From: a virus
Lineage: Duplodnaviria > Caudoviricetes
Strand: one strand, 5' to 3'
Length of the DNA: 33,742 nt
Virus record (IMG/VR): IMGVR_UViG_3300031766_000033
Location: 1 to 33,742 of that record
The translations under genes were made by a program, and so were the position numbers. Below, one piece after another: positions 4,470 to 32,601 of this stretch (position 1 is its first letter; every line of letters begins with the position of its first letter). The notes under the pieces were generated by a model. That model worked only from the letters and a program-made list of their open reading frames with translations, made no database searches and had not been told where the DNA came from.

Positions 4470-6939
4470 GTATAAAGGCGTAGATATCAATACAAAGCCA
4501 ACTGACGGCATGGTATCTGCTGCTCGCAAGGCACTTGATTGGCGTAAAGAATACGGCAGGGGTGGTACTGCGGTAGGAGTTGCTAGAGCTAGAGACATAA
4601 TCAATGGTTCTAATCTTAGTATTAGTACTGTAAAGCGAATGTACTCGTTCTTTGCCAGGCATGAAGTAGACAAGAAAGCAGAAGGCTTTAACTCTGGTGA
4701 AGAAGGATTCCCTAGCGCAGGAAGAATTGCTTGGGGTCTCTGGGGTGGTGACGCAGGACAAACATGGTCTAAGCGCATCGTGGATAGGATCAACTCTATT
4801 GACGATCGTAGCTATGATATAATCAACGACATAGCTGAAGAGGATTCAGACATGACGGATTTAGTAAACGAGGTGTTGATTGACGACACCGAGGAAGAGA
4901 TCGAGCAACGCGCTGAACCAGACGCTTTAAATGTCGGCGACTTTGTGAGCTGGAATAGTTCAGGCGGTCGCGCTCGTGGACGCATTGTTAAAATTGAAAG
5001 AGACGGTGAAATTAATGTCCCTGACTCTGATTTCAGCCTTGAAGGCACTGAAGAAAACCCAGCGGCCTTGATTAGACTTTATGATGGAGAGGGCGAGGAG
5101 ACAGATCGCTCTGTCGGTCACAAGTTTTCTACGTTAACTAAAATCGACCCTATTCGCGGCAATTATGATGAAGATCGTAAGGGTGATGTAGAAGTTCAGC
5201 ATCGCGCCATGTCGCTAGATGCGTCTCCTATTGATGAAGAGAAGCGCACAGTTAAGATTGCTATCTCATCCGAAGAGCCTGTATCTAGGTCATTTGGTAA
5301 TGAGGTATTAGAACATTCAGCCGAAGCGATTGATTTATCATTCCTCGCTTCAGGCAGAGCGCCACTGTTGCTGGATCATGACCCAGAGAAACAGATAGGC
5401 GTAATAGAATCGGTAGACCTTGATGGCTCGGCTCGTAGACTGCGAGCGACAGTACGCTTTGGAAAAGGCGCACTTGCTAGAGAGGCGTTCGATGATGTGT
5501 TGGACGGTATCCGCGCTAATATCAGTGTTGGTTATTCGATCAGCAAGATGCAGAAAGATGCTAGGGATGGCGAAACGTATATCGCTAAATCCTGGCGACC
5601 AATGGAAGCAAGTTTGGTGTCTATTCCTGCCGATGTGACAGTTGGCGTTGGACGGTCGAGCGAGCAGCCAAAGAAACCCGAAATCGTAACTTATGTGGAG
5701 GACAGTAAAATGTCTGAAGTAGATATCGCGGCTGTAGAGGCTCAAGCCCGTCAATCAGCCAGTAAGAATGCAGCTCAAATCCTTGAGCTTGGTCAGCGTC
5801 ACGGTCAGAGCGAGCTTGCTCACAAGGCTATTGCTGAAGGTACATCAATCGAAGAGTTCCGTGGTTCGGTTCTTGAGAAGATCGGTAGCGAACGCGCTCT
5901 CGAAGCTCAAGAGATCGGATTGACTAAAGAGCAGACTAAGCGCTTCTCACTAGTCAAGGCTATCCACGCTCTTGCAAACCCAACTGATCGCCGCGCTCAA
6001 GAAGCTGCTGCGTTTGAGTTCGAGGCTTCACGCGCTGCTGCTGAGCAGTACGGTCGCTCAGCTCAAGGCATCATGCTCCCTGCGGAAGTAATGAAGAACT
6101 GGAAGCGTGACCTGAACTCTGCTGATGATTCAGCGATCTTCGGTGATGATTTCCGTGGCGGTGACTTCATCGACGTACTGCGTAACGCTTCAAGCGTAAT
6201 GCAAGCTGGCGCAACAATGCTGTCTGGGCTCTCTGGCGATGTCAAAATCCCTAAGAAGACTGCTGCTGCAACTGCTGCTTGGATTGCTACTGAAGGTGGC
6301 GCGGCTGCTGAGAGCGAAATGACAGTTGGTCAGGTCTCAATGACTCCTAAGACTCTTGGTGCGTTCACTGACGTTACTCGTCAGCTACTCATCCAAAGCT
6401 CTTTGGACGTTGAGGCTCTTATCCGTAACGACCTCACTTCTGCTATGGCTCTTACTATTGATAAGGCTGGCTTGGAAGGCGCAGGTACAAGCGGAGCGCC
6501 TACTGGTATCCTGAGTACTTCTGGTGTGAACACTGTCTCTGCATTCGCTGCTGCTAACCCAACTTTTGCGGAAGTTGTTGGCCTTGAGACAGCAATTGCA
6601 GAAGACAACGCTCTCATGGGTAACCTTGCTTACATCCTCCCTGCGGGTATGTACGGCGCTCTGAAGACTACTGAGAAGGCTTCTGGTACTGCTCAGTTCG
6701 TCATCGAGCCAGGTGGCACTATGAACGGCTACCGCGCAATCGTTTCTAACCAAGCGACTGCTGGTAACCTTTACTTCGGCAACTTCTCTGACCTCCTTAT
6801 TGGAATGTTCGGTGGACTAGATATAGTAGTAGACCCATATACAGCGTCTACAACTGGTACTATCCGAGTAGTTGCTCTGCAATCAGTAGACGTAGCAGTA
6901 CGTCACGCTGTGAGCTTCGCCTTCGGTAACGACGGCTAG
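4462..6939 (+). CDS. Fused head polyprotein: unknown N-domain + Tudor/SH3-like domain + prohead protease + HK97-fold major capsid protein
   Basis: Protease motifs LLLDHD, ISVGY and EASLVSIPAD (about 5240-5660). Capsid motifs FIDVLRNAS, AWIATEG, QLLIQSS, YFGNFSDL and DVAVRH (5710-6939). Confidence 0.93.
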   Translation: MTKYKGVDINTKPTDGMVSAARKALDWRKEYGRGGTAVGVARARDIINGSNLSISTVKRMYSFFARHEVDKKAEGFNSGEEGFPSAGRIAWGLWGGDAGQTWSKRIVDRINSIDDRSYDIINDIAEEDSDMTDLVNEVLIDDTEEEIEQRAEPDALNVGDFVSWNSSGGRARGRIVKIERDGEINVPDSDFSLEGTEENPAALIRLYDGEGEETDRSVGHKFSTLTKIDPIRGNYDEDRKGDVEVQHRAMSLDASPIDEEKRTVKIAISSEEPVSRSFGNEVLEHSAEAIDLSFLASGRAPLLLDHDPEKQIGVIESVDLDGSARRLRATVRFGKGALAREAFDDVLDGIRANISVGYSISKMQKDARDGETYIAKSWRPMEASLVSIPADVTVGVGRSSEQPKKPEIVTYVEDSKMSEVDIAAVEAQARQSASKNAAQILELGQRHGQSELAHKAIAEGTSIEEFRGSVLEKIGSERALEAQEIGLTKEQTKRFSLVKAIHALANPTDRRAQEAAAFEFEASRAAAEQYGRSAQGIMLPAEVMKNWKRDLNSADDSAIFGDDFRGGDFIDVLRNASSVMQAGATMLSGLSGDVKIPKKTAAATAAWIATEGGAAAESEMTVGQVSMTPKTLGAFTDVTRQLLIQSSLDVEALIRNDLTSAMALTIDKAGLEGAGTSGAPTGILSTSGVNTVSAFAAANPTFAEVVGLETAIAEDNALMGNLAYILPAGMYGALKTTEKASGTAQFVIEPGGTMNGYRAIVSNQATAGNLYFGNFSDLLIGMFGGLDIVVDPYTASTTGTIRVVALQSVDVAVRHAVSFAFGNDG
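4813..4823 (+). promoter_or_regulatory. Candidate internal extended -10 promoter (TATGaTATAAT)
   Basis: TRTGnTATAAT consensus, followed by GAGGA (4840-4844) and an in-frame ATG at 4852. Confidence 0.5.
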
Positions 6940-18934: not shown

Positions 18935-19564
18935 ATGGCTACAATTACCACAAGGGCGGGTAAAGGCTCGCCTCTAACAAATACAGAGGTTGATGCTAAT
19001 TTCACCAACCTCAATACTGACAAGCTGGAGGCGGGGGACGACTTAGGGACTCCCTCGGCTGTAGTTCTCACTAATGCTACAAGTTTGCCTAGCGGCTCTC
19101 TAACAGGGACTGTCGCGGTAGCTAATGGCGGCACAGGCTCGTCTACTGCTTCTGGGGCGTTAACGAATCTGGGGCTTACAGCCACGGCAGTAGAACTAAA
19201 TTATATTGACGGCGTTACCTCCGCAATTCAGGATCAGCTAAATTACTCTGATGACCGCACCATCAATGCGCTAGGCAGTGTCAGCGGCACTACTGACATT
19301 GATTTAGCTGATGGAACTAACGTCACTGCGACGATAGCCGCAGCCACTACATTTACGATTAGCGGCATTACTAGCGGGTCAGTGAATACAGTGACCTTGT
19401 ATCTCACGAACGCAGGGGCTTACACAATTACATGGCCTTCCGGTACGACATTTAATAGGAATGCCGCGCCTGTTCTACCTGCTTCCGGTGATACGATCAT
19501 CGTTCTTGAAACTTATGACAATGCTACTTCTTACGCAGGTATACAGGTCTGGAGAAGTGTTTAA
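18935..19564 (+). CDS. Tail fibre protein with a C-terminal adaptor domain
   Basis: N-terminal RAGKGSPLTNTEVDANFTNLN; fibre motifs VAVANGGTG and ELNYIDGVTSAIQDQL; C-terminal DLADG...TITWPSG domain. Confidence 0.7.
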   Translation: MATITTRAGKGSPLTNTEVDANFTNLNTDKLEAGDDLGTPSAVVLTNATSLPSGSLTGTVAVANGGTGSSTASGALTNLGLTATAVELNYIDGVTSAIQDQLNYSDDRTINALGSVSGTTDIDLADGTNVTATIAAATTFTISGITSGSVNTVTLYLTNAGAYTITWPSGTTFNRNAAPVLPASGDTIIVLETYDNATSYAGIQVWRSV

Positions 19565-21042
19565 TGAGTCGCAATTTATTGGCAGGAGGTGACTTTCTTA
19601 CAACTTTTGATACGAGTTGGGTGACTTCGTTTAATACTCTTAGAGCCACAAACACTAGCTACAACACTAATCGTGTTACTACCTTTGCGACATCTAACGC
19701 CACTACAACAAGCTATGCGACAAATGTAACGACTACGTTCTCAACTCTTGTCCCGACTAGCACAAGCAACTCAACTAGCCGTGTGACCAGTTATCTGACT
19801 GCCGTACCCGCGACATACGCCAACACTTCGCGTGTTACGACTATCACAACAACTTACAATACTACTGTCCCTGCGGTTAATCAAAATACAAGTCGTATCA
19901 CACAAATAACGACAACGTATAACACGACAGTCCCTGCTACTTACGCGAATACTTCTAATGTAACGAATTTCACAACAAGTTATTCTACCTATGTGCCTCC
20001 GACGTACAGGGCAACAAGTCATGTTACGTCCTACACTACAACTTACGCGACAACCTATCCTGCTGTGTATAGGTCAACAAGCAACCCGACAGGAGTAGCG
20101 GCCTCTCGCATTACGTCATATTTAACATATTACACAACAACGTATTCAACATTGGTAACTGCTGCTTCCACAGTTTCTACGTCTAACGCGACGACTAGAA
20201 CTACGACATTCAACACAAGTTTTACCGGCACTGCTTATAGATATTTTACAGACTCAGGTTGCGGCTCAGAAGCAGGGTTTAGTCCTGTCTTTAGCGGTTG
20301 TTCGGGAACTAAATCACCAGGCGGCTGCGGCGGCTGTATTCCGACTCCTGGCGGCAGCGGTTATGAGTCTATTCAATCATGCTCTTCGTCTACCTGTACG
20401 AGCAGCACTAGCAATTCAACAAGCTACACAACAACTTACAATACAACTGTTCCTGCTGTTTATCGAAACACTAGCCATGTTACGTCTAAGACCACTTCAA
20501 ATAGCACGGCATACACTAGCACTATCACGACAACCTATAGCACATTAGTCAGCGCGGCATACAGCCAGAACACAAGTCACACAACTAGCAAAACAACTAG
20601 CTACAGCACACAGACTGCCGCAGGATACAACAGAACAACGTCTCATGTTACAAGCAGGACAACAACTTACAGCACTCAAACTGCTGCTGCATTTGTTCGT
20701 AGCACTAGCAATGTCACTGACATTACCACGACCTTCAGCACTGAGGTTGCGGCATCGTTTGTTCGCAGCACTAGTCACGCAACCACGATTACGACAACTT
20801 ACAGCACTCAAACTGCTGCGGGATTTGATAGGACTACAAGTCATACTACGACTTATACAACGACCTTCAATACTGATGTTCCGCAGAACACCTCTAGGTT
20901 GACTGCTAGAACAACAAGTAACGCTACAACGACAACTTATAACACAAGCAACACCACTACGTTTGCTACGTCACGCTCTACGAATACCAGTGTTTTGACT
21001 AGCCGCACAACCACTTTCTCAACATCCAACTACACAGGTTAA
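19564..21042 (+). CDS. Thr/Ser-rich fibre/adhesin protein with a central Cys/Gly-rich knob
   Basis: Thr at roughly every fourth residue, 21- and 22-aa repeats, and six Cys confined to aa 233-278. Translationally coupled (TAATG) to the fibre gene. Confidence 0.7.
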   Translation: MSRNLLAGGDFLTTFDTSWVTSFNTLRATNTSYNTNRVTTFATSNATTTSYATNVTTTFSTLVPTSTSNSTSRVTSYLTAVPATYANTSRVTTITTTYNTTVPAVNQNTSRITQITTTYNTTVPATYANTSNVTNFTTSYSTYVPPTYRATSHVTSYTTTYATTYPAVYRSTSNPTGVAASRITSYLTYYTTTYSTLVTAASTVSTSNATTRTTTFNTSFTGTAYRYFTDSGCGSEAGFSPVFSGCSGTKSPGGCGGCIPTPGGSGYESIQSCSSSTCTSSTSNSTSYTTTYNTTVPAVYRNTSHVTSKTTSNSTAYTSTITTTYSTLVSAAYSQNTSHTTSKTTSYSTQTAAGYNRTTSHVTSRTTTYSTQTAAAFVRSTSNVTDITTTFSTEVAASFVRSTSHATTITTTYSTQTAAGFDRTTSHTTTYTTTFNTDVPQNTSRLTARTTSNATTTTYNTSNTTTFATSRSTNTSVLTSRTTTFSTSNYTG

Positions 21043-29125: not shown

Positions 29126-29164
29126 AAAAAAAAGCCCTGAGCGTTTCACAACGTGTCAGGGCTT
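29126..29164 (-). terminator. Rho-independent terminator for a minus-strand RNA
   Basis: AAGCCCTGA (29132-29140) pairs with TCAGGGCTT (29156-29164), with an inner GCGTT/AACGT stem. A8 on + is U8 on -. Confidence 0.8.
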
Positions 29165-29191
29165 GCAAATCTAACTCAAGGGGACTACTAT
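29163..29191 (+). promoter_or_regulatory. Sigma70 promoter for the rightward RNA
   Basis: TTGCAA-17 nt-TACTAT; predicted start about 29198. Confidence 0.7.
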
Positions 29192-29194
29192 TGG

Positions 29195-29610
29195 CTTGTC
29201 GGTGGGTTAGCAGCCCTAAATTCTGACTTGACTAAGGAGAAGTAGAAACCCGACAAGGGATATTCTACACCATCCTGTAAGATCCTACCAAGTCCTATAC
29301 CGAACGTGTGGCAAAGCCTGACGTACTCTGGCTCATGTGGTAGCTGACCCTGAAATTAGCCGCAGAAATGTGAGAAGCAAGTGACCTAACAACCTGCGCT
29401 GACTCGCCCATGTCAACAGGTAACCGCAAACACACACAACCAGGTCGCGAGCTAGGCATTGAAATAACTTCCAGTTAAGTCTGGCGGGGGAGCGGTTCAC
29501 CACTGTGGATCGTTGCAATGAGTACCAAGTCTTCGGACTTTCCGTTTTGGAGCGCTAGGACACCTAATGCCGTGGGTGTGTTTGCGGGGGAAAATGGGCG
29601 CTTGTGCCTG
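29195..29610 (+). ncRNA. Putative large structured RNA (about 410 nt)
   Basis: Perfect 12-bp long-range helix (29424-29435 with 29576-29587), cUUCGg and GAAA tetraloop hairpins, many further stems with G-U pairs. No credible ORF. Confidence 0.7.
29262..29291 (-). promoter_or_regulatory. Promoter for the antisense RNA
   Basis: TTGGTA-18 nt-TAGAAT on the minus strand. Confidence 0.55.
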
Positions 29611-29803: not shown

Positions 29804-29825
29804 TATAACAAGTAAACAAAATATG

Positions 29826-29857
29826 TTGACTCCTGTGTTTTTGGTAGGCAGTATTAT
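29826..29857 (+). promoter_or_regulatory. Possible promoter for the helicase operon
   Basis: TTGACT at 29826 preceded by an AT-rich tract. The -10 is either CAGTAT (17-nt spacer) or TATTAT (20-nt spacer); neither is ideal. Confidence 0.4.
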
Positions 29858-30258: not shown

Positions 30259-30494
30259 TGTGGATTTTAACGAGAAATGGTCAAAAGTTTGGTTATGCAA
30301 CAACTGATAAGGCCGCGATAGAAAAGTACCGTGGATGGTACATCGAAGACCATTATAAAGCCGAGGCTGCTCAAGTTCAGCTAAGGCTGTGGAATGCTTC
30401 AAAGACTACCATTCTACAGTCAGATGCAGAGCAGATAGCTCGTGACACGCTTGAAGAGGAAATCGGCGTAATGCAGATCAAGCAGCATGATTGA
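30258..30494 (+). CDS. Hypothetical protein
   Basis: GGAGG RBS and TAATG coupling. Confidence 0.65.
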   Translation: MWILTRNGQKFGYATTDKAAIEKYRGWYIEDHYKAEAAQVQLRLWNASKTTILQSDAEQIARDTLEEEIGVMQIKQHD

Positions 30495-31992
30495 ACTAAG
30501 ACCTCACCAAGAGTCTGCCGTAGAGCAGATCAGGCAGTCTCTGAGAAAGGGGAATAAACGCCCTCTCTTGGCAGCTCCTTGTTCTATGGGTAAGACAATG
30601 ATAGCTGCGTTTATCATGATGAGGGCGGCAGAGAACGGCGTTAGAAGTATCTTCTTCTGCGACCGAGTTAAGCTCGTAGGCCAGACGGTTGAGACGTTCG
30701 AGAGGCTCGGCGCTGACTTTAGCGTAATGCAAGGCGATGACCCCAGGTACGACCCTAACAAAATGATACAGATCGCATCTATTCAGACAGCGGTTCGCAG
30801 AAAGCATCTAAACTTTGGCCTGGCGATAGTAGATGAATGTCACACAATGTATAAGGGTCTGGTAGACGGCTTTATGACCAGGTATGACAACGTACCATTT
30901 ATAGGGCTGTCAGCTACCCCTTACTCTAAGGGTCTGGGTAAATACTGGGACGATTTACTCGTACCCATCACGCCAAGGCAATTAATCGACCTGGGTTACC
31001 TATGTCCCACTGATTACTACGTTGGTGAGACCATTAGTACCAAGGGGATCAAGAAGAAAGCCTTGCCTACAGGCGGTAGCGACTTTGATGCAGAATCTCT
31101 TGGCGCTGCGATGATTGATTCAGAGACTTTCAACGGTGACGTAGTAGAGAACTACCGTGTCCACTCTGGCGACCTCACTAAGCGAGCGATAGCGTTCAGT
31201 CCTTCCGTGGCGCACTCCAAAGCATTAGTAGAGAAGTTCAACGCAGCAGGAATCCCAGCTCTACACATAGACGGCTATATGCCTGAAGAAGAGCGCAAGT
31301 ATATCTACTCAGATCATCGAGCAGGTAAAGCGCTTGTACTGTCATGCAGTCGATTGCTCGGTACTGGCTACGATGACCCCTCAGTAGAGATATTGATAGA
31401 TTGTTTCCCTACGTCTAAGAACTCTAAGATAAGTTGGATACAGCGAGCAGGTCGCATATGGAGAATAGCGCCAGGAAAGGAACGCGCTATCTACTTAGAC
31501 CACGCAGGTAACCTTCATCGCCACGCTATGTTCCCAGAGGATGTTATCCCTGACTCTCTTCATAGCGGAGACAAGAAGTTCGATGAGCGAGAGCAGACTA
31601 AGAAGGAAGAGAAAGAGCCAATCATGCGTGACTGTCCGGTATGCTCCGCGACATTCACTGGGCGTAAGTGCGCCTGTGGCTATGAACTGGCTATGACAGA
31701 GCCTGTATTTAAGGACACAGGCGGTCTGTTGAAGAAGGTAGACAAGCTGACCTTGAGCCAGGACAAAAACAGATGGTACGGAGAACTGCTCTATCACGCC
31801 AGGTCTCGCGGATGGTCAGATGGATGGGCGGCTCACGCTTATAGGGATAAGTTTGATGTCTGGCCTCGCAACGTAGATAAAGTTCCAGTAAAAACAGAAT
31901 CTAAGGACGTAAAGAATTGGATACAAATGCTGACGATAAGAAGGGCTAAAAGCAATGCTAAATATCTCAATAGTTCTAGAGCGATTAGATAA
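30487..31992 (+). CDS. Superfamily 2 DNA helicase (DExH, RadD/YejH-like) with a C-terminal zinc ribbon
   Basis: LRPHQ, APCSMGKT, IVDECH, GLSATP, GTGYD, QRAGRIWR, LDHAGN, CPVC...CAC. Confidence 0.93.
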   Translation: MIELRPHQESAVEQIRQSLRKGNKRPLLAAPCSMGKTMIAAFIMMRAAENGVRSIFFCDRVKLVGQTVETFERLGADFSVMQGDDPRYDPNKMIQIASIQTAVRRKHLNFGLAIVDECHTMYKGLVDGFMTRYDNVPFIGLSATPYSKGLGKYWDDLLVPITPRQLIDLGYLCPTDYYVGETISTKGIKKKALPTGGSDFDAESLGAAMIDSETFNGDVVENYRVHSGDLTKRAIAFSPSVAHSKALVEKFNAAGIPALHIDGYMPEEERKYIYSDHRAGKALVLSCSRLLGTGYDDPSVEILIDCFPTSKNSKISWIQRAGRIWRIAPGKERAIYLDHAGNLHRHAMFPEDVIPDSLHSGDKKFDEREQTKKEEKEPIMRDCPVCSATFTGRKCACGYELAMTEPVFKDTGGLLKKVDKLTLSQDKNRWYGELLYHARSRGWSDGWAAHAYRDKFDVWPRNVDKVPVKTESKDVKNWIQMLTIRRAKSNAKYLNSSRAIR

Positions 31993-32380
31993 GGTTCGCA
32001 AGACCCCTAATGGATGGACTGCTTGCTGTCCTGTTCATGGTGACAGAAATCCCTCGATGAGCATTACTGAGAAAGACGACGTTATCCTATGTCACTGTCA
32101 CGCCTGTGGCGCTAACGGCGTTGACGTAGTTGCTGCGGTTGGTTTGAAGCCAGAGGTCTTGTTTGATAAGCCGTTTGAACGAGAGGAAGACAAACACTGG
32201 CTGCTCAATAAAAAGGCTGATTGGGATGAGTGTATAATAGCTATGGCAGATGAGACGATTAAGCGAGGCGAGAGGATTGCTTACGGTGACTACAAAACTA
32301 TCAAAGAGTCTCTAGCCAGGCGAGAGCAAAGAAGGAAGATTGGCCTCCCGATAATTTTTAATATGGACATAATCCTATGA
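31955..32380 (+). CDS. Stand-alone primase-type CHC2 zinc-finger protein (no TOPRIM domain)
   Basis: WTACCPVHGDRNPSMSI...CHCHACG; only 141 aa. Confidence 0.85.
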   Translation: MLNISIVLERLDKVRKTPNGWTACCPVHGDRNPSMSITEKDDVILCHCHACGANGVDVVAAVGLKPEVLFDKPFEREEDKHWLLNKKADWDECIIAMADETIKRGERIAYGDYKTIKESLARREQRRKIGLPIIFNMDIIL

Positions 32381-32601
32381 GTCTTGCAGATATAGATAAA
32401 AACACAGTCATCCTTAGCCGCACTCCCTACAAAAGCGAAATAACCGAAGCGAGTAAGACTGAGCTGCAAGCAATCATCGATGCAGACATTGCTCGGTTTC
32501 TCAAAGCTGGCGGTAAGATACAGAAGATAGATTATCAGCTAACTAATATGAAGCAGAAGGAAGGGCGTTCGACTTTGGACTTCAGGAATAAGTTCTTGTA
32601 G
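32377..32601 (+). CDS. SutA RNA-polymerase-binding-domain-like protein
   Basis: IDADIARFLKAGGKIQKI resembles the SutA FLxxGGKVQxI motif. Confidence 0.55.
   Translation: MSLADIDKNTVILSRTPYKSEITEASKTELQAIIDADIARFLKAGGKIQKIDYQLTNMKQKEGRSTLDFRNKFL

What the first reader, a model, noticed from the sequence alone, without database searches (positions are those of the whole stretch)
29195..29610. Large, probably pseudoknotted non-coding RNA at the position of the missing replication initiator
Seen: about 410 nt without a credible ORF but dense in helices. Long-range: CCGCAAACACAC (29424-35) with GTGTGTTTGCGG (29576-87), 12 bp perfect, and GGCATTG (29455-61) with TAATGCC (29565-71). The second helix closes a multiloop containing CCAG/CTGG, GCGGTTCAC/GTGGATCGT (29492-513), AAGTC-TTCG-GACTT (29527-40, cUUCGg) and TCC/GGA. 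CGCA-GAAA-TGTG (29361-72) is a GNRA hairpin. A hairpin ACCTG..TGAC/GTCA..CAGGT (29392-421) has the loop CGCCCAT, complementary to ATGGGCG (29594-600), a potential pseudoknot. GTGACCT (29381-87) can also pair with AGGTCGC (29442-48). Frequent G-U pairs and the tetraloops point to the + strand RNA. Two G5 tracts (29486-90, 29586-90) could favour R-loops. I do not recognise it as a known family. Inference: a pre-primer/origin RNA, or a ribozyme-like or scaffold RNA acting with the downstream helicase and zinc-finger proteins.
Basis: partly seen in the sequence, partly recalled or inferred. Interest (0 to 1): 0.88.

Follow-up and report, generated by a model that had tools for sequence, protein, structure and literature searches.

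The report
Multi-pseudoknot phage RNA, likely replication primer
This phage carries a conserved 305-base element, absent from Rfam, whose paired sequence changes predict an RNA with at least five pseudoknots and an antisense partner, and which likely primes the phage's DNA replication in place of an initiator protein.

Summary
The feature is real. It does not fold better than shuffles, but it covaries strongly: 52 pairs, 95.6% paired, 31 with changes on both sides against 17.6 in shuffles. The stretch holds two units: a 63-nt 5' module and a 305-nt RNA (29305-29609) with five covarying pseudoknots and a sixth that is only conserved. Its core recurs in 45 divergent clusters of phage and bacterial loci. 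No Rfam family matches, and ColE1 RNA II shows no profile similarity. Relatives keep facing promoters and a terminator that predict a ~130-nt antisense RNA. 18 of 65 rows have tandem NrdR boxes just 5' of the RNA; this window has none. Seven loci run straight into initiator proteins lacking their N-terminal half. Best reading (0.5): a ColE1-like but unrelated primer/origin RNA. Against: transcription is not shown, 36 of 38 such stand-alone initiator domains lack the core, some copies precede terminase genes, and dispersed chromosomal copies occur in two Bacteroidales.

The parts
29126..29164 (-). Intrinsic-terminator-like hairpin with U tract, predicted end of the antisense RNA; overlaps the rightward -35
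   Evidence: Inverted repeat I7; similar hairpin found in 23 of 29 module-A loci
29163..29191 (+). Sigma70-type promoter (TTGCAA, 17 nt, TACTAT) predicted to start the long transcript near 29197
   Evidence: Equivalent promoter in 27 of 29 module-A loci; too weak for the scan
29195..29257 (+). Module A: three-way junction at the 5' end of the long transcript, variable loop; predicted target of the antisense RNA
   Evidence: present in 29 of 34 loci examined; separable from module B
29126..29255 (-). Predicted ~130-nt antisense RNA (RNA I-like); its 5' ~60 nt are complementary to module A
   Evidence: Inferred from promoter and terminator positions; no transcript data
29262..29291 (-). Leftward promoter (TTGGTA, 18 nt, TAGAAT). 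In relatives the first of two NrdR boxes lies in its spacer; this window has lost the boxes
   Evidence: leftward -10 in 29 of 29 module-A loci; boxes in 18 of 65 rows, window best score 14 of 22, p 0.43
29305..29609 (+). Module B: ornate RNA of about 305 nt with at least five pseudoknots
29305..29333 (+). 5' hairpin AGCC/GGCT; its loop pairs with the 5' end (29305-07/29321-23) and, through ACT, with AGT 29521-23
   Evidence: First pair C-G 18, G-C 8, A-U 7 of 33; ACT/AGT conserved but without double changes
29339..29374 (+). Small H-type pseudoknot (29339-41/29348-50 with 29343-46/29357-60), then a GNRA hairpin with a bulged GA
   Evidence: Helices 4-6 (79.6%, 97.7%, 100% paired)
29376..29453 (+). 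Helix P5: AGC/GCT, tandem RA/GA loop, GTGAC/GTCGC; crosses P7
   Evidence: 7-8 of 8 pairs in 33 of 33 rows
29393..29420 (+). Core hairpin P6: invariant CCTG/CAGG, C(G/T)C opposite A, TGAC/GTCA, loop
   Evidence: Search seed; inner stem covaries
29424..29587 (+). Core helix P7, CCGCAAAC 29424-31 with GTTTGCGG 29580-87, enclosing the variable domain
   Evidence: 6 of 8 pairs change on both sides
29455..29579 (+). Pseudoknot GGCATT 29455-60 into the loop of hairpin 29560-79; between them hairpins 29472-83, 29492-513, 29527-40, 29541-51
   Evidence: Loop pairing of 4 bp or more in 29 of 33 rows (no shuffle control; short ones are individually weak)
29484..29491 (+). Internal G tract GCGGGGGA, direct repeat of 29584-91
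29584..29600 (+). End of P7, second G tract, A-rich linker and the strand ATGGGCG that pairs with the P6 loop (terminal pseudoknot)
   Evidence: Helix 9; core test passed by 56 of 66 viral hits against 3.5 expected
30487..31992 (+). SF2 DNA helicase of the downstream operon
   Evidence: phrog_16, ResIII/Helicase_C
31955..32380 (+). Stand-alone primase-type CHC2 zinc finger, no catalytic domain
   Evidence: PF01807 residues 3-55 only; no Toprim_3 in this record

Best explanation
The element is a conserved, multi-pseudoknot structure that likely acts as a pre-primer/origin RNA: transcribed from the promoter at 29163-91, it would fold so that it stays hybridised to its own template at the second G tract, open the duplex and prime phage DNA synthesis with host enzymes, under control of a predicted antisense RNA. 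Shown: the fold, the facing promoter motifs and terminator, the direct repeat, NrdR boxes in many relatives, and gene context. Inferred: transcription; that the internal G tract pairs with the template C tract as in ColE1; processing by RNase H and extension by Pol I; that the displaced strand is loaded by the phage helicase and zinc finger or, in other members, by a stand-alone initiator C-terminal domain; that NrdR bound to box 1 represses the antisense promoter so that priming rises when dNTPs are plentiful. It would work like ColE1/MRB RNA I-RNA II but is not a member of either family.
For: Layout of long RNA plus short 5'-overlapping antisense RNA: module A in 29 of 34 loci, rightward promoter 27 of 29, leftward promoter 29 of 29, terminator 23 of 29; this is the layout described for ColE1 and MRB origins. 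Tandem NrdR boxes 31-32 bp apart at a fixed place just 5' of the RNA in 18 of 65 rows (consensus, spacing). First downstream gene matches only the C-terminal part of initiator profiles in L097, L224, L231, L238, L279; in the reverse test the core precedes 2 of 38 short and 0 of 31 full-length O-like genes. DnaB or primase-helicase follows in L225 and L152. Of 23 pattern-bearing viral records (11 at least 90% complete), 0 have HTH_36, 0 PolA, 2 Toprim_3. The 11-nt junction at the end of P7 has a cognate internal direct repeat over 45 clusters, 271 against 230 +/- 5.5 when permuted, three control windows not significant; an rG/dC pairing of this kind is reported as essential in ColE1.
Against: No transcript shown. 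2 of 38 against 0 of 31 is not significant, and 36 of 38 stand-alone initiator domains have no core. The repeat signal vanishes when only the linker (207 vs 207) or only the P7 strand (203 vs 199) is tested, so it may be an alternative RNA partner. This window and its nearest kin lack the NrdR boxes, as do all core-only loci, and NrdR may simply regulate neighbouring genes: L006 and L017 keep boxes without module B. First downstream genes are terminase small subunit, RusA, HNH or unknown in many loci. Two RNA-bearing phages keep a Toprim primase. RNA-less relatives lack HTH_36 as well. Four and two dispersed chromosomal copies in two Bacteroidales genomes are hard to square with active origins. 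No profile similarity to ColE1 RNA II.
Confidence: 0.5

Rival explanations
1. An antisense-controlled leader: the fold gates translation or transcription read-through of the downstream replication genes, like the rep-activating pseudoknots of IncI/IncB plasmids (mechanism recalled, not looked up).
For: The terminal pseudoknot ends 2-45 nt before a start codon in many loci; antisense layout; NrdR boxes fit control of a replication operon.
Against: The next gene is 400-670 nt away in L181, L282, L285 and on the opposite strand in L176, L179, L198, L212; downstream genes differ widely; a 305-nt fold with an invariant core is more than a switch needs.
Confidence: 0.22
2. A catalytic or mobile RNA: the invariant P6/P7/terminal-pseudoknot core is a ribozyme active site (self-cleaving, processing or ligating), and the element can move as a unit.
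For: Invariant unpaired residues and ribozyme-like complexity; an ORF-poor, promoter-bearing element with the core lies at 4 and 2 dispersed sites in 2 of 41 Bacteroidales genomes, similarity ending just after the terminal pseudoknot; different RNAs occupy the same slot in L006 and L017.
Against: No Rfam ribozyme or intron hit; no interrupted reading frame, reverse transcriptase or nuclease seen beside the loci inspected; the phage position is fixed. Self-cleavage to make a primer end would be compatible with the best explanation.
Confidence: 0.15
3. A trans-acting scaffold or RNA-polymerase-binding RNA (antiterminator or host-factor sponge) made early in infection.
For: Own promoter; location at the divergence of early operons; ornate fold as in GOLLD/ROOL-type phage RNAs; a SutA-type RNAP-binding domain is encoded downstream.
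Against: No conserved terminator after the RNA was seen; does not explain truncated initiators or the direct repeat.
Confidence: 0.08
4. The structure works as single-stranded DNA (a primosome or primase signal), not as RNA.
For: Replication context; plasmid motifs of this size may act as ssDNA.
Against: GNRA/UNCG loops, G-U pairs and tandem GA loops are RNA features on one strand; conserved promoters.
Confidence: 0.05

Closest known systems
ColE1 RNA II / RNA I replicon
   Same: Long structured RNA with a short antisense RNA over its 5' end; two G tracts, the first followed by a hairpin, the second after a terminal helix (by eye); no origin-binding initiator
   Different: No profile similarity either way (E>=2.3); look-alike motifs vary among five ColE1-type origins; no RNAI hit; antisense RNA overlaps only ~60 nt; G tracts 100 nt apart, not about 245; lies in tailed phages; NrdR boxes
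MRB (pB1067) RNA-based replicon of Vibrionaceae
   Same: Rep-less origin with RNA I and RNA II on opposite strands in marine bacteria
   Different: pB1067 itself could not be fetched; no hit in pPS41 or pJM1 1-50,000; no plasmid hit for three queries
ARRPOF, GEBRO, PAGEV plasmid motifs
   Same: 223-349-nt motifs tied to plasmid replication, function open
   Different: No Rfam 15 match at gathering or E-value level; that these three are among the Rfam models is recalled
T4 R-loop origins (oriF, oriG)
   Same: Phage replication primed by a transcript
   Different: Promoter plus unwinding element; no ornate RNA or antisense control described in the passage read
GOLLD and ROOL large phage RNAs
   Same: Large ornate RNAs in phages
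   Different: No Rfam match; smaller; not beside tRNAs; modular core of about 100-300 nt

Membership tests
ColE1-type replicon | Sequence homology to RNA II | tested here: not met
   Profile of 5 ColE1-type origins against 45 representatives, and two profiles of this RNA against those origins: best E 2.3
ColE1-type replicon | RNA I of family RF00106, three stem-loops, fully complementary to RNA II | tested here: not met
   RF00106 hits ColE1 only; predicted antisense RNA overlaps about 60 of 130 nt
ColE1-type replicon | Facing promoters giving a long RNA and a short terminated antisense RNA | tested here: met
   Motif level only: 27 of 29, 29 of 29, 23 of 29
ColE1-type replicon | rG tract in the RNA pairing with a dC tract in the template | tested here: inconclusive
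   Cognate direct repeat p<1e-5, but linker-only test null
ColE1-type replicon | Persistent hybrid, RNase H cleavage, Pol I extension | not testable with these tools
   Needs experiment
MRB replicon | Homology to the 488-bp origin and 68-nt RNA I | tested here: inconclusive
   Type plasmid not in the collection; origin position in the two substitutes not verified; blastn of plasmids negative
Any Rfam 15 family (ribozymes, introns, riboswitches, large RNAs) | Covariance-model score at the gathering cut-off | tested here: not met
   0 hits in the window and in 29 RNA-bearing or pattern-bearing loci; only chance hits by E-value
NrdR regulon | Two boxes 31-32 bp apart | tested here: inconclusive
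   Met in 18 of 65 rows at a fixed place, not met in this window; binding untested
Protein-coding gene | Conserved open frame | tested here: not met
   0 of 33 rows open; 309 of 365 indels shift the frame

The most novel reading that the evidence does not exclude
A widespread RNA fold that serves as the replication initiator of tailed phages: it has replaced the origin-binding half of lambda-O-like initiators, or the primase catalytic domain, in several lineages, may cut its own primer end, is gated by antisense RNA and the host dNTP sensor NrdR, and can move between phages and chromosomes.
Probability: 0.3. Interest if true: 0.95.

Novelty: new variant of a known kind. Interest (0 to 1): 0.85.

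Why it matters
RNA-initiated, Rep-less replication has been described for two plasmid families. An unrelated, heavily pseudoknotted RNA doing this in tailed phages would explain how small phages with no initiator, primase domain or polymerase start replication, and would tie initiation to dNTP supply through NrdR. Natural versions from about 100 to 300 nt give a compact handle on the open question of what makes a transcript stay on its template. Whatever its function, the fold is new to Rfam, among the most ornate for its size, and a ready target for probing and cryo-EM.

Tried and rejected
Folding energy as evidence: not above shuffles. Homology to ColE1 RNA II: several motifs looked alike by eye but vary among ColE1 relatives and give no profile hit. 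A GTG/CAT helix at the 5' end: replaced by the covarying CGT/ACG pairing. A pairing of 29310-13 with 29606-09: plausible in many rows by eye, not among the top covarying pairs, left out. Expression: 18 of 20 listed runs hold part of the stretch; contigs of 8 RNA runs cover it patchily like the rest of the genome and cannot show strand or ends; one joint 29273-29393 in a single contig is probably a strain difference. blastn of isolated phages and plasmids: chance hits only; ColE1 origin in 11 phage records looks like vector or co-assembled plasmid. DnaB_C search: 3 of 24 records over the cut-off, the weak hits fall on the SF2 helicase-length frames. DnaT identity of the L154/L106 proteins: no Pfam or PHROG hit, Atlas lead at 0.92 only. 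Atlas search of the zinc-finger protein's C-terminal part: nothing above 0.86. No covariance model was built: a 305-position model exceeds the calibration limit and cannot hold the pseudoknots. Earlier findings of this scan: none returned.

Full report
Setting. The window is a 33.7-kb lambda-like tailed phage record rated 100% complete. The finding lies between a leftward ERF/exonuclease operon and a rightward operon of three small genes, an SF2 helicase and a stand-alone CHC2 zinc finger. Of the 45 ORFs listed, 41 were scanned; none hit an initiator, polymerase or primase catalytic domain, and several had no hit at all.

Observation. The region folds no better than shuffles. Relatives whose helicase is about 68-70% and whose ERF is about 40% identical keep the intergenic DNA at 66-72%. 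On a 33-row alignment, 52 pairs in 12 helices are 95.6% paired, 31 change on both sides against 17.6 in shuffles, and slid controls fall to 33-47%. These shuffles ignore relatedness, so I also ran a G-test against a home-made tree-based null of 30 replicates: 9 pairs reach E<=0.13, all fully canonical. No frame is open in any row and 309 of 365 indels shift the frame. G-U pairs and GNRA/UNCG loops point to + strand RNA.

Anatomy. Module B (29305-29609) has these crossing pairings: 5' end to the first loop (C-G 18, G-C 8, A-U 7 of 33); that loop to AGT 29521-23 (conserved, no double changes); a small H-type pseudoknot; helix P5, which crosses P7 (7-8 of 8 pairs in 33 of 33 rows); GGCATT into the loop of hairpin 29560-79 (29 of 33, no shuffle control, and for L014, L026, L073 and L165 the parser chose a different closing helix); and the P6 loop to ATGGGCG. 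Five of the six covary. Module A (29195-29257) is a separate three-way junction; L005 has another sequence there and L006 lacks module B. Among 34 loci, 29 have module A; of these 27 have a rightward promoter before it, 29 a leftward -10 just after it and 23 a leftward terminator upstream (permissive motif rules, no shuffle control). This predicts a long RNA and a ~130-nt antisense RNA overlapping its first ~60 nt.

Family. A pattern for the P6 hairpin alone gave 92 viral, 42 genome and 120 metagenome stretches (the last scan stopped at its limit). A test for P7, a purine linker and the loop complement, none of which beyond three bases was in the pattern, was passed by 56 of 66 distinct viral hits (3.5 expected) and 9 of 41 genome hits (2.4 expected), and by 50 of 59 further metagenome hits (no control). 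113 passing sequences (L244 dropped for a wrong partner) form 45 clusters. The P7-enclosed part ranges from about 45 to 220 nt. The invariance of CCTG/CAGG is partly built in by the search. Rfam gives nothing.

Context. In L097, L224, L231, L238 and L279 the next gene matches only the C-terminal part of initiator profiles (phrog_270 positions 178-253 of 383; phrog_678 positions 216-316 of 346) (35 proteins chosen by hand). L106, L154 and L152 have DnaT-like proteins by eye, with an Atlas lead only. Starting from the protein instead, the best 80 of 129 relatives gave 69 distinct complete cases: the core precedes 2 of 38 short genes (L387, L424) and 0 of 31 full-length ones. The direction fits but the difference is not significant, and stand-alone domains are common without the core. 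Among 23 pattern-bearing viral records none has HTH_36 or PolA and 2 have Toprim_3; of 3 RNA-less helicase relatives 2 have Toprim_3 and none HTH_36. Single families were searched, so other initiators or primases could be missed. Other loci put the RNA before terminase small subunit, RusA, HNH or unknown genes. In 2 of 41 Bacteroidales genomes an ORF-poor element with the core lies at 4 and 2 dispersed sites, 73-81% identical, with similarity ending just after the terminal pseudoknot.

NrdR. Two palindromes 31-32 bp apart lie just 5' of module B in 18 of 65 rows (p<=0.033 on 60 shuffles; a 19th, L307, lies elsewhere), from several clades. They match the published consensus (PMC4009431, passages) and spacing (PMC2892513, passages). 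Box 1 falls in the spacer of the leftward promoter (by eye). This window's lineage has a shorter spacer and no boxes; core-only loci have none; L006 and L017 have boxes with a different downstream element.

Direct repeat. The 11 nt spanning the end of P7 recur inside the same RNA more than in other members (271 against 230 +/- 5.5, p<1e-5; three control windows not significant), but the linker alone and the P7 strand alone show no excess. In ColE1 an rG stretch of the RNA must pair with a dC stretch of the template (PMC4412123, passages). The repeat fits that, or an alternative partner for P7.

Mechanism. I commit to a primer/origin RNA (0.5): the long transcript folds, stays on the template at the second G tract, and primes synthesis through host RNase H and Pol I; the antisense RNA inhibits; NrdR, where present, represses the antisense promoter when dNTPs are high. 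Only the fold, motifs and context are shown. Rivals are an antisense-controlled leader (0.22), a catalytic or mobile RNA (0.15), a trans-acting scaffold (0.08) and a DNA structure (0.05). Contigs of eight RNA runs neither show nor exclude transcription.

Comparison and novelty. It works like ColE1 or MRB replicons on this reading (PMC5043065, passages; PMC3035462, parts 2-4 of 6; PMC8683028, passages) but fails the homology tests. ARRPOF, GEBRO and PAGEV are comparable in size and suspected role (PMC5737381, passages and section 24) and do not match. Searches listed no description of this family; PMC10085705 (abstract and passages) is unrelated. PMC10690425 (passages) lists 8,495 viral candidates of 29-151 nt; its alignment files could not be read, so a fragment of this RNA may be among them. 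Subscription journals were not searched. I rate it a new variant of a known kind at the level of mechanism, with a fold new to Rfam; interest 0.85.

Noticed in passing
L006:2600-2900 and L017:1810-2110: Helicase relatives with a different ORF-poor, hairpin-rich element in the same slot, also behind tandem NrdR boxes; the first 43 nt of the L017 element resemble the 5' hairpin of module B (E 0.034).
   Followed up: partly
L432-L437 (G026, G027): The core sits in an ORF-poor element of over 800 nt with a Bacteroidetes-type promoter motif (recalled) and short upstream repeats, dispersed in two Bacteroidales genomes; one copy (L176) lies among phage-like genes.
   Followed up: partly
L224, L225, L279, L330, L334, L387, L424, L395, upstream of the core or of the gene: A shared motif CACTC, hairpin, GAATGA; L395 has it without the core.
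   Followed up: no
L340, L350, L353, L356, L384, L395, L398, L409, 500 nt before the match: Other ORF-poor, apparently structured stretches before stand-alone initiator C-terminal domains; possibly further RNA classes in this slot.
   Followed up: no
window 29816-29831: The best NrdR-like single site of the window (17 of 22, tied with one at 6814), in a stretch 95-100% conserved in distant relatives, before the p126-helicase genes; no second box seen.
   Followed up: partly
window 32377-32601 +: 74-aa protein with a SutA RNA-polymerase-binding domain.
   Followed up: no
L181, L236, L285, inside P7: Long AT-rich inserts within the RNA, in Bacteroidetes-type loci near recombinase or restriction genes; candidate unwinding elements.
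   Followed up: no
window 19564-21042 +: 492-aa Thr/Ser-rich repetitive protein among tail genes, not scanned against families.
   Followed up: no
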